This document shows positions 2,050 to 5,813 of a DNA stretch of 5,813 nucleotides, piece by piece. Origin of the DNA: a virus (taxonomy: Duplodnaviria > Heunggongvirae > Uroviricota > Caudoviricetes); the IMG/VR virus record IMGVR_UViG_2713897074_000004, positions 1 through 5,813 of that record; one strand, written 5' to 3'. The notes below the pieces were generated by a model. It was not told the origin of the DNA, searched no databases, and was given only the letters and a program-made list of their open reading frames with translations. Each line of letters opens with the position of its first letter. Position 1 is the stretch's first letter. A program made the translations under genes and the position numbers.

Positions 2050-2065
2050 AAAGCGCCATGTGAAT

Positions 2066-2268
2066 GTAGGTCGCATTCGGCACTTATTGTCGGATGCGAT
2101 GCTTGCGCATCTTATCCGACCTACGAATCGCATCGAATCTGTAGGCCAGATAAGGCATTTTCGCAGCATCCGGCACTTATTGTCGGATGCGATGCTTGCG
2201 CATCTTATCCGACCTACAAATCGCATCGAACCGTAGACCGGATAAGGCGTTTACGCCGCATCCGGCAA
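2066..2268. repeat. BIME: 4-5 REP palindromes in alternating orientation, including a ~62-bp near-identical direct repeat (2076-2137 and 2169-2230)
   Basis: REP-like units GTCGGATGCGATGCTTGCGCATCTTATCCGACCTAC (x2, + orientation) alternate with inverted units TGTAGGCCAGATAAGGCATTTTCGCAGCATCCGGCA and CCGTAGACCGGATAAGGCGTTTACGCCGCATCCGGCA; sits between the convergent 3' ends of ybhJ and ybhC. Confidence 0.75.
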
Positions 2269-2282
2269 ATAGTTAATTGCTC

Positions 2283-3566: not shown

Positions 3567-3599
3567 AGGTTGCTCCGGGCTATGAAATAGAAAAATGAA

Positions 3600-3705
3600 T
3601 CCGTTGAAGCCTGCTTTTTTATACTAAGTTGGCATTATAAAAAAGCATTGCTTATCAATTTGTTGCAACGAACAGGTCACTATCAGTCAAAATAAAATCA
3701 TTATT
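3600..3705 (+). other. attL: Phage lambda attL (B-O-P'): 15-bp common core 3613-3627, IHF H' site, arm-type Int sites P'1-P'3
   Basis: Bacterial arm ...TTGAAGCCTGC followed by core GCTTTTTTATACTAA and phage arm GTTGGCATTATAAAAAAGCATTGCTTATCAATTTGTTGCAACGAACAGGTCACTATCAGTCAAAATAAAATCATTAT; IHF consensus TATCAATTTGTTG at 3653-3665; arm-type sites AGGTCACTAT, CAGTCAAAAT, AAATCATTAT at about 3675-3705. Confidence 0.85.
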
Positions 3706-4771
3706 TGATTTCAATTTTGTCCCACTCCCTGCCTCTGTCATCACGATACTGTGATGCCATGGTGTCCGACTTATGCCCGAGAAGATGTTGAGCAAACTTA
3801 TCGCTTATCTGCTTCTCATAGAGTCTTGCAGACAAACTGCGCAACTCGTGAAAGGTAGGCGGATCCCCTTCGAAGGAAAGACCTGATGCTTTTCGTGCGC
3901 GCATAAAATACCTTGATACTGTGCCGGATGAAAGCGGTTCGCGACGAGTAGATGCAATTATGGTTTCTCCGCCAAGAATCTCTTTGCATTTATCAAGTGT
4001 TTCCTTCATTGATATTCCGAGAGCATCAACATGCAATACTGTTGGGATGGCAATTTTTACGCCTGTTTTGCTTTGCTCGACATAAAGATATCCATCTACG
4101 ATATCAGACCACTTCATTTCGCATAAATCACCAACTCGTTGCCCGGTAACAACAGCCAGTTCCATTGCAAGTCTGAGCCAACATGGTGATGATTCTGCTG
4201 CTTGATAAATTTTCAGGTATTCGTCAGCCGTAAGTCTTGATCTCCTTACCTCTGATTTTGCTGCGCGAGTGGCAGCGACAGGGTTTGTTGTTATATGGCC
4301 TTCAGCTATTGCCTCTCGGAATGCATCGCTCAGTGTTGATCTGATTAACTTGGCTGACGCCGCCTTGCCCTCGTCTATGTATCCATTGAGCATTGCCGCA
4401 ATTTCTTTTGTGGTGATGTCTTCAAGTGGAGCATCAGGCAGACCCCTCCTTATTGCTTTAATTTTGCTCATGTAATTTATGAGTGTCTTCTGCTTGATTC
4501 CTCTGCTGGCCAGGATTTTTTCGTAGCGATCAAGCCATGAATGTAACGTAACGGAATTATCACTGTTGATTCTCGCTGTCAGAGGCTTGTGTTTGTGTCC
4601 TGAAAATAACTCAATGTTGGCCTGTATAGCTTCAGTGATTGCGATTCGCCTGTCTCTGCCTAATCCAAACTCTTTACCCGTCCTTGGGTCCCTGTAGCAG
4701 TAATATCCATTGTTTCTTATATAAAGGTTAGGGGGTAAATCCCGGCGCTCATGACTTCGCCTTCTTCCCAT
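3701..4771 (-). CDS. int: Lambda integrase Int (tyrosine recombinase), apparently intact
   Basis: 356-aa product MGRRRSHERRDLPPNLYIRNNGYYCYRDPRTGKEFGLGRD... recognised as lambda Int; catalytic signatures present (HELRSLSARLY, LLGHKSDTMASQY with the active-site Tyr); overlaps xis by 23 bp as in lambda. Confidence 0.95.
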   Translation of the reverse strand: MGRRRSHERRDLPPNLYIRNNGYYCYRDPRTGKEFGLGRDRRIAITEAIQANIELFSGHKHKPLTARINSDNSVTLHSWLDRYEKILASRGIKQKTLINYMSKIKAIRRGLPDAPLEDITTKEIAAMLNGYIDEGKAASAKLIRSTLSDAFREAIAEGHITTNPVAATRAAKSEVRRSRLTADEYLKIYQAAESSPCWLRLAMELAVVTGQRVGDLCEMKWSDIVDGYLYVEQSKTGVKIAIPTVLHVDALGISMKETLDKCKEILGGETIIASTRREPLSSGTVSRYFMRARKASGLSFEGDPPTFHELRSLSARLYEKQISDKFAQHLLGHKSDTMASQYRDDRGREWDKIEIK

Positions 4772-4967
4772 TTCTGATCCTCTTCAAAAGGCTACCTGTT
4801 ACTGGTCGATTTAAGTCAACCTTTACCGCTGATTCGTGGAACAGATACTCTCTTCCATCCTTAACCGGAGGAGGGAATATCCTGCACTCGCGTACCCATC
4901 GACGAACTGTTTCAAGGCTTCTTGGGCGTCGCTGGCGTGCGTTCCACTCCTGAAGTGTCAAGTACAT
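4749..4967 (-). CDS. xis: Lambda excisionase Xis
   Basis: 72-aa product MYLTLQEWNARQRRPRSLETVRRWVRECRIFPPPVKDGREYLFHESAVKVDLNRPVTGSLLKRIRNGKKAKS recognised as lambda Xis. Confidence 0.95.
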   Translation of the reverse strand: MYLTLQEWNARQRRPRSLETVRRWVRECRIFPPPVKDGREYLFHESAVKVDLNRPVTGSLLKRIRNGKKAKS

Positions 4968-4995
4968 CGCAAAGTCTCCGCAATTACACGCAAGA
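4950..4995 (-). promoter_or_regulatory. pI: pI region: cII-binding TTGC-N6-TTGC tetrad repeats immediately upstream of and overlapping the xis start (cII-activated int promoter)
   Basis: Minus strand reads TTGCGTGTAATTGCG (TTGC at 4993-4990 and 4983-4980, 6-nt spacer), 13 nt upstream of the xis ATG; matches the lambda pI/cII site as I recall it. Exact -10 and transcription start not determined here. Confidence 0.5.
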
Positions 4996-5014
4996 AAAAA
5001 CCGCCATCAGGCGG
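4995..5014 (-). terminator. Putative weak intrinsic terminator at the orf55 stop (5-bp GC stem, 4-nt loop, 6 U)
   Basis: Minus-strand RNA GCCGCCUGAUGGCGGUUUUUU: stem CCGCC/GGCGG followed by UUUUUU. Short stem; function unverified. Confidence 0.3.
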
Positions 5015-5174
5015 CTTGGTGTTCTTTCAGTTCTTCAATTCGAATATTGGTTACGTCTGCATGTGCTATCTGCGCCCATATCATCCAGTGGTTATAACAG
5101 TCGTTGATGTTCTCTGCTTCGATAACCCTGTTGAATGGCTCTCCATTCCATTCACCTGTGACTCGGAAGTGCAT
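5007..5174 (-). CDS. Small lambda hypothetical protein (orf55-like, 55 aa) between xis and the ea8.5 slot
   Basis: ATG at 5174 preceded by GGAG (7-nt spacer); translates MHFRVTGEWNGEPFNRVIEAENINDCYNHWMIWAQIAHADVTNIRIEELKEHQAA, stop at 5007-5009; below the length cutoff of the supplied ORF track; position matches the small ORF next to xis in lambda (by recall). Confidence 0.6.
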   Translation of the reverse strand: MHFRVTGEWNGEPFNRVIEAENINDCYNHWMIWAQIAHADVTNIRIEELKEHQAA

Positions 5175-5185
5175 TTATCATCTCC

Positions 5186-5212
5186 ATAAAACAAAACTCG
5201 CCGTAGCGAGTT
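5186..5212 (-). terminator. Putative rho-independent terminator downstream of the 142-aa gene (7-bp stem, 4-nt loop, U-rich tail)
   Basis: Minus-strand RNA AACUCGC-UACG-GCGAGUU followed by UUGUUUUAU; lies 46 nt after the stop at 5258 and just before the orf55 RBS. Confidence 0.45.
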
Positions 5213-5257
5213 CAGATATAATTTCCACCAAAGGCAGTAGTTGCTTGATGCTAAGAA

Positions 5258-5686
5258 TTATTCAATATCTATTCCTGTAATATCTTTTATCTTTTTCCTT
5301 GCAAAGCCTTTTGCTAGTGATTTTGAAACACTCATAAGTGTACTAATTCCCTCATCCTTAAAGTTTGTTTTTATAGCTTGCCAGACATCCTTTTGACGTA
5401 AGTCAGCAATAAAATCATGCCCTCTTGCTGTCAACCTCAGTGGTACTTCGATCCAACTATATCCAACACCTTCCCCTAACGCTTTGGACAATATATGACC
5501 GAACCCAGGTTTTCCATCAACCCTGACTATTAATTCGTAGTCACATAATAATCGCATATGGAAAATAAAATCTTGGTCATATCTATTAAAGCCATTATCC
5601 TCTAGTTCACTAAGCATCGTGTCAGGGCCACGAGTTTTTTCGAATGCGATAAGTAGATCTTTTAGATATTGCTGGTCTAATTTCAT
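5258..5686 (-). CDS. Hypothetical protein, 142 aa, unknown function; prophage accessory (moron-like) gene in the slot occupied by ea8.5 in lambda
   Basis: ATG at 5686 preceded by GGAGG with a 5-nt spacer (CACCGGAGGCGGCAATG); product MKLDQQYLKDLLIAFEKTRGPDTMLSELEDNGF...KKIKDITGIDIE; no hydrophobic segment long enough for a transmembrane helix, no signal peptide, one Cys; lower GC than the neighbouring lambda and host genes. The ORF track extends it to a TTG at 5710 inside the IS1 end, which I reject. Confidence 0.7.
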   Translation of the reverse strand: MKLDQQYLKDLLIAFEKTRGPDTMLSELEDNGFNRYDQDFIFHMRLLCDYELIVRVDGKPGFGHILSKALGEGVGYSWIEVPLRLTARGHDFIADLRQKDVWQAIKTNFKDEGISTLMSVSKSLAKGFARKKIKDITGIDIE

Positions 5687-5696
5687 TGCCGCCTCC

Positions 5697-5813
5697 GGTG
5701 ATGCTGCCAACTTACTGATTTAGTGTATGATGGTGTTTTTGAGGTGCTCCAGTGGCTTCTGTTTCTATCAGCTGTCCCTCCTGTTCAGCTACTGACGGGG
5801 TGGTGCGTAACGG
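5697..5813 (+). mobile_element. IS1: IS1 terminal fragment: first 117 bp of IS1 (insA-proximal end), element body continues right of the window
   Basis: GGTGATGCTGCCAACTTACTGATTTAGTGTATGATGGTGTTTTTGAGGTGCTCCAGTGGCTTCTGTTTCTATCAGCTGTCCCTCCTGTTCAGCTACTGACGGGGTGGTGCGTAACGG recognised as the IS1 end; exact inverted copy of 1-117. Confidence 0.9.
5752..5813 (+). CDS. insA: insA 5' fragment (IS1 InsA N-terminus), cut by window edge
   Basis: GTG at 5752 then MASVSISCPSCSATDGVVRN...; runs off the window. Confidence 0.7.
   Translation, partial: MASVSISCPSCSATDGVVRN

What the first reader, a model, noticed from the sequence alone, without database searches (positions are those of the whole stretch)
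5258..5686. Compositional island: the cargo gene is markedly AT-richer than its neighbours
Hand counts on 60-nt stretches give roughly 32-43% GC inside 5258-5686, against about 55% in ybhJ and intermediate values in int/xis. A local GC drop confined to one gene suggests recent horizontal acquisition from a lower-GC source, as is common for defence and moron cargo.
Basis: seen in the sequence. Interest (0 to 1): 0.4.

Follow-up and report, generated by a model that had tools for sequence, protein, structure and literature searches.

The report
AT-rich accessory gene in lambda-type prophage
The AT-rich patch is real, but it is an ordinary swappable accessory gene (a small winged-helix protein of unknown function) in a decayed lambda-type prophage, and its low GC is a habit of the whole gene family, not a sign of recent import from a low-GC organism.

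Summary
Observation confirmed. Window 5258-5686 (minus strand) has 36.4% GC and GC3 of 28.7%. ybhJ and ybhC are at 53%, int at 45%, xis at 49%. It is the lowest-GC block of its size in the window. GC3 lies 5.5 SD below what its own amino-acid sequence would give with local host codon usage.

The block is one intact gene, a 142-aa DUF2513 / PHROG 585 winged-helix protein. It sits in the variable slot beside orf55-xis-int of a lambda-type prophage at attB-lambda, where lambda carries ea8.5. Homology to lambda stops at about 5219-5223. The right edge (5697) is an IS1 end that removed the rest of the operon.

Interpretation partly supported. The gene is a mobile mosaic cassette, but recent acquisition from a lower-GC source is not supported:
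- All close relatives are enterobacterial, and the best non-Escherichia match is only 75% identical.
- 50 of 51 homologues in hosts with 32-67% local GC are AT-richer than their flanks (mean -8.5 points, r = 0.86 with local GC).
- About half of the deficit comes from amino-acid composition.

No known defence family matches and no own promoter is visible. Rare relatives fuse this domain to TIR or AbiTi-like effectors, which is a lead only. Function is inferred: an early-expressed PadR/MarR-like regulator or sensor. Ordinary; low interest.

The parts
5258..5686 (-). DUF2513 / PHROG 585 gene: 142 aa, ATG at 5686, stop at 5258-5260. This is the AT-rich block (36.4% GC, GC3 28.7%).
   Evidence: Pfam PF10711 scores 42.2 bits against a cut-off of 29.6, covering model positions 1-100/100. 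phrog_585 E=2.3e-34. RefSeq annotates it as a DUF2513 domain-containing protein, WP_000762731.1. AF2 model has pLDDT 93. dN is 0.15 with saturated synonymous sites against the Enterobacter mori copy.
5692..5696 (-). Shine-Dalgarno GGAGG, 5 nt upstream of the ATG
   Evidence: Read directly from the sequence.
5175..5257 (-). Spacer between DUF2513 and orf55 (38.6% GC). It contains a terminator-like hairpin at 5194-5213 followed by a T-run, and the mosaic junction with lambda at about 5219-5223.
   Evidence: Terminator scan. Three-way alignment with Chlobot and lambda. BLAST to lambda ends at window 5222.
5697..5813 (+). Left end (IRL) of an IS1 element, inserted 10 nt upstream of the DUF2513 start codon. 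It forms the right edge of the AT-rich island in this window.
   Evidence: Annotated as IS1 family transposase in the matching genomes. The sequence diverges from phage Chlobot exactly here. No target-site duplication at the far IS1 end in L002. The same junction is present in 23 genomes.
5007..5174 (-). Homologue of lambda orf55 (55 aa), the conserved left neighbour
   Evidence: phrog_676 E=1.7e-39. About 97-99% nucleotide identity to lambda 29118-29285.
4749..4967 (-). xis (excisionase)
   Evidence: Pfam Exc E=3.9e-41.
3701..4771 (-). Lambda-type tyrosine integrase
   Evidence: Pfam Phage_integrase E=3.7e-40 and lambda Arm-DNA-bind_1 E=7e-33.
3613..3627 (+). Lambda att core GCTTTTTTATACTAA, the attL end of the prophage next to ybhC. 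The GC drop from host level begins here.
   Evidence: Exact match, with 0 expected in shuffles. Identity to Chlobot and lambda begins at this base.

Best explanation
The AT-rich block is a single, intact, conserved protein-coding gene. It encodes a 142-aa stand-alone DUF2513 (PHROG 585) winged-helix protein. The gene occupies the variable slot next to orf55-xis-int, at the distal end of the leftward early (pL, 'exo-xis') operon of a lambda-type prophage integrated at attB-lambda beside ybhC. It is a mosaic cassette that sits where lambda has ea8.5. The left junction lies just beyond a shared terminator-like hairpin (about 5219-5223). In this strain an IS1 element landed 10 nt upstream of the start codon, and the rest of the operon was lost. 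The gene is therefore cut off from pL and probably silent (inferred). Its low GC has two parts: an amino-acid composition rich in Lys, Ile, Asp, Phe and Leu (about 45% of the deficit) and a strong synonymous A/T preference (about 55%). This offset is a stable property of the gene family wherever it occurs, which suggests long residence in the phage and mobile accessory gene pool. It does not point to a recent transfer from a low-GC donor. Function is inferred, not shown. The most likely role is a small PadR/MarR-like winged-helix protein with a C-terminal helix, made early after infection or induction. It would bind DNA or another ligand and tune phage-host regulation, as proposed for other exo-xis proteins.
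Against: No experiment or paper addresses DUF2513; there were 0 papers for 'DUF2513' or 'PF10711'. The winged-helix domain is acidic (pI 5.2; family median pI 5.45), which is not typical of an operator-binding repressor. No operator was sought or found. The reference for host codon usage was only 7 neighbouring genes (2920 codons), not the whole genome. Flanks in the 51-locus comparison are a mix of host and mobile DNA, so the size of the offset is approximate. The family-wide pattern cannot exclude that this particular lambdoid lineage picked the cassette up from a somewhat lower-GC enterobacterial phage (for example Yersinia-type; that copy has 37% GC).
Confidence: 0.72

Rival explanations
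1. One reading: the gene was recently acquired from a donor with a lower-GC genome and has not yet ameliorated.
For: GC3 of 28.7% is far below host and phage means. The gene is present in only 3.4% of complete E. coli genomes and in 1 of 212 phage records that share the int-xis-orf55 flank. The junction with lambda is sharp.
Against: The closest non-Escherichia homologues are 75% identical or less, all named close hits are from Enterobacterales with 47-59% GC (my knowledge for these genome GC values), and synonymous sites are saturated against the nearest one. Two E. coli allele groups about 2.5-3% apart share the same context. 50 of 51 homologues in hosts of every GC class show the same negative offset, and gene GC tracks local GC. 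Part of the deficit is amino-acid driven.
Confidence: 0.12
2. The gene is defence or anti-defence cargo. The DUF2513 module would sense a phage component, or mimic the sensor domain of host defence proteins. It would protect the lysogen (superinfection exclusion) or help the phage evade a DUF2513-effector defence protein.
For: Rare relatives carry the same N-terminal module fused to TIR domains (P0127, P0228; hits to ThsB, PycTIR and PADLOC candidates PDC-S35 and PDC-S66). Others are fused to AbiTi-like C-termini (P0112, P0193, P0204) or a PDC-S60-like domain (P0191). The gene is solitary, patchily distributed and AT-rich, with no conserved partner across taxa. It is kept intact in a heavily decayed prophage remnant. 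It shows weak sub-threshold similarity to a wHTH family (PF24409, 'wHTH-PRTase associated') that I recall, from memory and untested here, being described in conflict systems (13 of 35 members).
Against: The protein itself gives no PADLOC hit at E<=1. It has no effector domain. The PADLOC hits of the fusions lie in their C-terminal effector parts, not in the DUF2513 module. All 120 best hits of the N-domain profile are stand-alone proteins of about 135 aa, so fusions are exceptional. In intact phages the gene lies inside the early lytic operon, without a promoter of its own for expression in the lysogen. Its retention here may only reflect the youth of one clonal lineage (23 genomes).
Confidence: 0.2
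3. The low GC is only a by-product of amino-acid composition, with no synonymous bias.
For: GC2 is low at 32%. Expected GC from the protein sequence with host codon usage is already 45.5% against 53% for host genes.
Against: Observed GC is 36.6% and GC3 28.9%, against expected 45.5% and 50.2%. That is z=-6.1 and z=-5.5.
Confidence: 0.03
4. The stretch is not a functional gene but decaying AT-rich prophage debris with a chance ORF.
For: The surrounding prophage is heavily degraded, and an IS1 sits 10 nt upstream. dN/dS between the two close E. coli alleles is 0.68, based on only 11 differences.
Against: There is a full-length Pfam hit above threshold and a PHROG hit. The ORF is intact and 100% identical to that of a plaque-forming phage. 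About 1431 clusters of relatives exist. Motifs are invariant, the AF2 model is confident, and dN is much lower than the saturated dS at longer range.
Confidence: 0.03

Closest known systems
Pfam DUF2513 (PF10711) / PHROG 585, annotated in RefSeq as 'DUF2513 domain-containing protein' WP_000762731.1
   Same: Full-length match above the curated threshold, with shared FxFHMR and PLRLTxxGHDF motifs. It has the stand-alone architecture of about 135-142 aa that dominates the family.
   Different: Nothing structural differs; it is a plain member. The family has no assigned function and no solved structure.
Lambda ea8.5 and the other non-essential 'exo-xis region' genes of lambdoid phages
   Same: Same slot: immediately upstream of orf55-xis in the pL operon. 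Same flanks, at 98.9% identity. Small, non-structural and AT-rich (ea8.5 has 38.7% GC), with a predicted nucleic-acid-binding fold.
   Different: No sequence similarity to Ea8.5 (E=9.2). Ea8.5 is a homeodomain/zinc-finger hybrid according to PMC8614690, whereas this protein is a winged helix.
PadR (short subfamily), MarR and HxlR winged-helix transcription regulators
   Different: No sequence-level membership in those families. Foldseek E-values are only 0.05-0.3 with TM-scores of about 0.4. An extra beta-hairpin is inserted in the wing (strands 64-68 and 74-78). The domain is acidic. DNA binding is untested.
Phage 'morons' (Juhala/Hendrix sense: an extra gene with its own promoter and terminator, atypical composition, expressed from the prophage)
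   Same: Present or absent among close relatives at one site, atypical composition, and a terminator-like hairpin directly downstream.
   Different: No promoter-like site of its own, and only 28 nt to the upstream gene in intact phages. It is co-oriented with the early operon, and the hairpin belongs to the flank shared with lambda.
Single-protein TIR / AbiTi-like defence candidates (PADLOC PDC-S35, PDC-S60, PDC-S66; ThsB-like TIR)
   Same: A few proteins of these kinds use a DUF2513-type module as their N-terminal domain.
   Different: The window's protein has no effector domain and no PADLOC hit. The profile matches of the fusions fall in the effector parts only.

Membership tests
Pfam DUF2513 (PF10711) | Score above the curated gathering threshold over the whole model | tested here: met
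   42.2 bits against a cut-off of 29.6, covering model positions 1-100 of 100. All 35 aligned relatives also match.
Pfam DUF2513 (PF10711) | Conserved core motifs shared with relatives | tested here: met
   F40, F42, H43, R84-L85-T86, G89-H90 and F92 are invariant in 35 sequences.
PHROG 585 | Significant full-length profile match | tested here: met
   E=2.3e-34 over profile positions 1-127 of 128.
Moron | Present in some and absent from other closely related phages at the same site | tested here: met
   lambda, PhiR11_1, mEp332, ev099 and 720R6 carry other genes in the slot.
Moron | Nucleotide composition different from neighbouring phage genes | tested here: met
   Second-lowest GC3 of 73 Chlobot genes. 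Fisher p=0.002-0.04 against int, xis and orf55.
Moron | Own promoter | tested here: inconclusive
   No sigma-70-like match on the minus strand upstream. In intact phages the upstream gene ends 28 nt before the ATG. A consensus scan cannot exclude a weak or embedded promoter.
Moron | Own terminator | tested here: inconclusive
   A terminator-like hairpin lies at 5194-5213 plus a T-run. It sits in the segment shared with lambda, so it is not part of the cassette.
Moron | Expressed from the repressed prophage | not testable with these tools
   Needs RNA-seq or a reporter assay in a lysogen.
Known anti-phage defence systems (PADLOC-DB v2) | Match to a model of a known or candidate defence protein | tested here: not met
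   0 families at E<=1.
MarR / PadR winged-helix regulators | Winged helix-turn-helix fold | tested here: met
MarR / PadR winged-helix regulators | Sequence-profile membership (Pfam MarR, PadR) | tested here: not met
   No such hit even at E<=1 for 35 family members.
MarR / PadR winged-helix regulators | Dimeric binding to a palindromic operator | not testable with these tools
   Needs EMSA or ChIP. The acidic pI of 5.2 for the domain argues for caution.
Recently imported island from a low-GC donor | GC/GC3 deviates from host genes beyond the amino-acid effect | tested here: met
   GC3 z=-5.5.
Recently imported island from a low-GC donor | Closest relatives lie in low-GC lineages, at high identity | tested here: not met
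   Named close hits are all Enterobacterales, and the best non-Escherichia hit is 75% identical. Only 3 phage records have a homologue.
Recently imported island from a low-GC donor | The deviation is specific to this copy, not shared by homologues in other hosts | tested here: not met
   50 of 51 homologues are AT-richer than their flanks, r=0.86 with local GC.
Lambda Ea8.5 | Sequence homology | tested here: not met
   BLASTP E=9.2. Only the position is equivalent.

The most novel reading that the evidence does not exclude
The stand-alone phage DUF2513 protein is the free form of a sensor module that some bacteria fuse to TIR, AbiTi-like or other killing domains. Carried by a temperate phage, it would act in trans in one of two ways. 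It could be a decoy that soaks up the trigger, or poisons the oligomer, of host DUF2513-effector defence proteins (an anti-defence gene). Or it could be a sensor that recruits a separately encoded effector (a new exclusion system). The recurrent 112-aa ribbon-helix-helix/zinc-ribbon-like gene immediately upstream in E. coli, Cronobacter and Yersinia prophages might be its partner.
Probability: 0.12. Interest if true: 0.55.

Novelty: already known. Interest (0 to 1): 0.17.

Why it matters
It matters mainly as a caution. A gene-sized GC dip inside a prophage is not, on its face, evidence of recent transfer from a low-GC donor. Here the same negative offset follows the gene family through hosts with 32% to 67% local GC, so it is a trait of the family and of the mobile accessory pool it lives in. 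For annotation, the window is a lambda-type prophage remnant at attB-lambda with an IS1-truncated early operon, and the gene is already named DUF2513 in RefSeq. The only forward-looking point is that DUF2513 is a common family (about 1400 clusters) with no known function. Its module occasionally appears in front of TIR or Abi-like effectors, which gives a testable handle on what it senses.

Tried and rejected
- PADLOC scan of the protein and of orf55: no hit.
- PDB sequence searches with the single protein and with a 35-sequence profile: only chance matches with E around 1.
- Full-text search for 'DUF2513' and 'PF10711': 0 papers.
- The afdb50 fold library was unavailable. The BFVD viral fold search returned only uncharacterised or generic HTH proteins.
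- A search for a conserved neighbour by all-against-all BLAST of flanking ORFs in 51 loci found no partner shared by more than 4 loci.
- A Pfam scan of 123 flanking ORFs gave a heterogeneous mix: terminase small subunit x3, lysozyme x2, and many housekeeping genes.
- Classical CAI could not be computed because no Sharp-Li table was installed. I used an index referenced to 7 local host genes instead. It separates host genes (about 0.73) from phage early genes but not DUF2513 (0.473) from int (0.462) or xis (0.402).
- The 150-aa TTG-initiated ORF (5258-5710) was rejected because its first 8 codons lie partly in IS1.
- NCBIfam has no model for the protein.
- The Rfam scan found nothing in the island.
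- A second large protein search with the N-terminal module, aimed at counting effector fusions, returned only stand-alone proteins among its best 120 hits. The defence link therefore stays anecdotal.

Full report
OBSERVATION. The GC dip is real. Exact counting gives 36.4% GC for 5258-5686 (GC1 48.3, GC2 32.2, GC3 28.7). The partial ybhJ has 53.1%, ybhC 53.2%, int 45.1%, xis 49.3% and orf55 45.8%. The 60-nt blocks inside the gene range from 28% to 43%. The lowest-GC 429-nt windows of the whole 5.8-kb window start at 5167-5173, so they overlap this gene. The dip differs from the host genes (Fisher p about 1e-9) and, more modestly, from int, xis and orf55 (p=0.002-0.04 for GC, 0.004-0.011 for GC3). 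I held the protein sequence fixed and drew synonymous codons from seven neighbouring host genes. That gives an expected GC of 45.5% and GC3 of 50.2 +/- 3.9%. The observed values are 36.6% and 28.9% (z=-6.1 and -5.5). The codon usage of the intact phage gives the same answer. Roughly 45% of the deficit relative to ybhC/ybhJ is therefore amino-acid composition, and about 55% is synonymous A/T preference. A codon-adaptation index referenced to the local host genes does not separate the gene from int or xis (0.473 against 0.462 and 0.402). The deviation is compositional, not a special lack of adaptation.

ANATOMY. The window is E. coli chromosome. It holds ybhJ (aconitase family) and ybhC (pectinesterase-like), then the lambda att core GCTTTTTTATACTAA at 3613-3627. 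After that come a lambda-type integrase, excisionase and the lambda orf55 homologue, all on the minus strand. The AT-rich block is the next gene on that strand. Its ATG is at 5686, preceded by GGAGG at 5692-5696, and it encodes 142 aa. The protein matches Pfam DUF2513 above threshold (42.2 against 29.6 bits, full model) and PHROG 585 (E=2e-34). RefSeq annotates it as a 'DUF2513 domain-containing protein'. From 5697 to the end of the window the sequence is the left end of IS1. The 150-aa TTG ORF listed runs into IS1 and is an artefact. In the matching genome there is no target-site duplication at the far end of the IS1. What follows is unrelated debris (a lipocalin pseudogene, ybgA-like, essD/rrrD), so an IS1-associated deletion removed the remainder of the prophage's early operon. 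The same junction occurs in 23 of 5426 complete E. coli genomes; the listed ones include O6:H16 strains.

MOSAIC CASSETTE. Window 3613-5696 is 99.95% identical (1 mismatch in 2084 nt) to the free-living phage Chlobot (PP925838). There the gene lies in the leftward early operon between exo and xis. Identity to lambda is 98.9% from the att core to window 5222, then vanishes. At that point lambda carries ea8.5, which is unrelated in sequence. The junction lies just beyond a terminator-like hairpin (5194-5213 plus a T-run) that belongs to the shared flank. Other close relatives with the same int-xis-orf55 flank carry other genes in the slot. PhiR11_1 has ea8.5, mEp332 has two opposite-strand genes, ev099 has a 232-aa gene, and 720R6 has a 94-aa gene. 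These slot genes have GC from 38.6% to 46.3%. The gene is present in 184 of 5426 complete E. coli genomes (3.4%). The three further E. coli records I inspected all show the order int-xis-orf55-DUF2513, two at ybhC and one on a 304-kb plasmid next to dps. In Chlobot the dip is also gene-sized (L001 6400-7000). A roughly 50-55% GC segment separates it from a second AT-rich gene. Of 73 Chlobot genes, this one has the second-lowest GC3.

WHY AT-RICH. Three tests go against it.
- A search of 5.8 billion proteins returns close relatives that, where the source organism is named, come only from Enterobacterales (Citrobacter, Enterobacter, Serratia, Yersinia, Pantoea, Cronobacter and others). The best non-Escherichia match is 75% identical. 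Against the Enterobacter mori copy, synonymous sites are saturated while dN is 0.15. Only three phage records hold any homologue.
- I fetched 59 homologous loci from one genome per species and compared the GC of the gene with its surroundings of up to 12 kb in the 51 usable ones. The gene is AT-richer in 50 of 51, with a mean of -8.5 points (Wilcoxon p=7e-10). The hosts span local GC from 32% (Flavobacterium) to 67% (Gemmatimonadota, Rhodobacterales). Gene GC tracks local GC (r=0.86, slope 0.71). In 23 of 50 loci the gene is among the lowest 5% of same-size windows. A negative offset that travels with the family and scales with the host is what a long-resident, persistently AT-biased accessory gene shows. 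It is not what a fresh import shows.
- Low GC is normal for this class of lambda genes: ea8.5 38.7%, ea47 31.4%, ea59 36.3%, ea10 38.8%, sieB 38.6%. The split of the lambda genome into a GC3-rich structural half and a GC3-poor accessory half is established (PMC2266997).

What does stand is the weaker claim that the gene is a horizontally exchanged cassette. The host, trivially, acquired it with the whole prophage.

There is no universally conserved neighbour. In Enterobacterales the gene sits in prophage early regions: next to xis in E. coli, just before the small terminase in Cronobacter, and near the integrase in Serratia. A 112-aa gene lies 28 nt upstream in E. coli, Cronobacter and Yersinia frederiksenii (60% and 48% identity). 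It has a ribbon-helix-helix-like N-terminus and a Cys-rich C-terminus, judged from the sequence and not by a family hit (Pfam gave none). It is absent from the Serratia and E. mori loci and was lost here to IS1.

A few relatives fuse the module to TIR domains (P0127, P0228), AbiTi-like C-termini (P0112, P0193, P0204) or a PDC-S60-like domain (P0191). The PADLOC matches lie in the effector parts. Such fusions are rare: about 7 of the 150 best cluster representatives, and none of the 120 best hits of an N-domain profile. The window's protein has no PADLOC hit.

MECHANISM (inferred). In an intact phage the gene is co-transcribed with the pL delayed-early operon. It lies on the same strand as that operon, 28 nt behind the upstream gene, and no promoter-like site of its own was found. 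It would therefore be made early after infection or induction, like the other exo-xis genes. Those genes are non-essential modulators of the lysis-lysogeny decision (abstracts; PMC8614690). The most economical reading is a small, probably dimeric, PadR/MarR-like winged-helix protein that binds DNA or another ligand and adjusts phage or host regulation (about 0.4-0.5). A defence or anti-defence role is the main alternative (about 0.2). In this strain the IS1 insertion has cut the gene off from pL. With 36% GC it would be a plausible target for H-NS silencing (established general knowledge, not tested here), so it is probably not expressed.

COMPARISON AND NOVELTY. The gene is a plain member of DUF2513 / PHROG 585. 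It is positionally equivalent to lambda ea8.5 but not homologous. It is winged-helix-like in fold but not a sequence member of MarR or PadR. It meets two moron criteria (presence/absence polymorphism and odd composition). The terminator criterion is only ambiguously met, because the hairpin lies in the flank shared with lambda, and the promoter criterion shows no evidence. Nothing here is new in kind. The one lead worth keeping is the occasional DUF2513-effector fusions and the recurrent 112-aa upstream partner.

VERDICT. Observation confirmed. Interpretation partly supported: a mobile cassette yes, a recent low-GC donor no, defence or moron status unproven. Ordinary; interest 0.17.

Noticed in passing
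window 5697-5813: The left end of IS1 is inserted 10 nt upstream of the DUF2513 start codon, leaving the GGAGG ribosome-binding site intact. There is no target-site duplication at the far IS1 end in the matching genome, so the rest of the prophage early operon was deleted. The identical junction is in 23 of 5426 complete E. coli genomes; the listed ones include O6:H16 strains.
   Followed up: yes
L001 7016-7354; L066 6497-6835; L071-L074 5635-5973; L006 5640-5972: A 112-aa gene lies 28 nt upstream of DUF2513 in E. coli lambdoid, Cronobacter and Yersinia prophages (60% and 48% identity). It has a ribbon-helix-helix-like N-terminus and a Cys-rich C-terminus, and 50% GC, so it is not AT-rich. This may be a two-gene cassette. 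The partner is absent from the Serratia and E. mori loci and is lost in this window.
   Followed up: partly
proteins P0127, P0228, P0112, P0193, P0204, P0191 (relatives, not in the window): Rare relatives fuse the DUF2513 module to TIR domains (ThsB/PycTIR-like, PADLOC PDC-S35/S66), AbiTi-like C-termini or a PDC-S60-like domain. All 120 best hits of an N-domain profile are stand-alone, so fusions are exceptional.
   Followed up: partly
window 3613-3627: Exact lambda att core GCTTTTTTATACTAA marks the attL end of the prophage next to ybhC. The ybhC-int spacer (3567-3700) is itself 34% GC.
   Followed up: yes
window 2050-2282: The ybhJ-ybhC intergenic region carries tandem REP/BIME-type repeats (65-nt units at 2073 and 2166, 35-nt units at 2141 and 2233). 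It has an Rfam naRNA4 hit at 2144-2214, just above threshold.
   Followed up: partly
window 4998-5017 and 5194-5213, minus strand: Two terminator-like hairpins with T-runs flank orf55, one between DUF2513 and orf55 and one between orf55 and xis. Both lie in sequence shared with lambda. The scan found 5 sites in all, against 0.6 expected in shuffles. They sit inside the N-antiterminated pL operon.
   Followed up: no
L001 7500-8400 (phage Chlobot): A second gene-sized AT-rich island lies in the same exo-xis region: a 204-aa gene with a signal-peptide-like N-terminus (37.9% GC, GC3 29.8%) and no Pfam hit.
   Followed up: no
L065 (NZ_CP081775.1, 304-kb plasmid): The same int-xis-orf55-DUF2513 block, with further exo-xis genes, lies on a large plasmid next to dps instead of ybhC. 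11 of the 189 matching places for this gene in E. coli are on plasmids.
   Followed up: no
window 5007-5174: This is the lambda orf55 homologue. A modelling paper (PMC8614690) proposes that lambda Orf55 resembles the T7 Gp2 inhibitor of RNA polymerase. It is conserved here at about 97-99% nucleotide identity while the adjacent slot varies.
   Followed up: no
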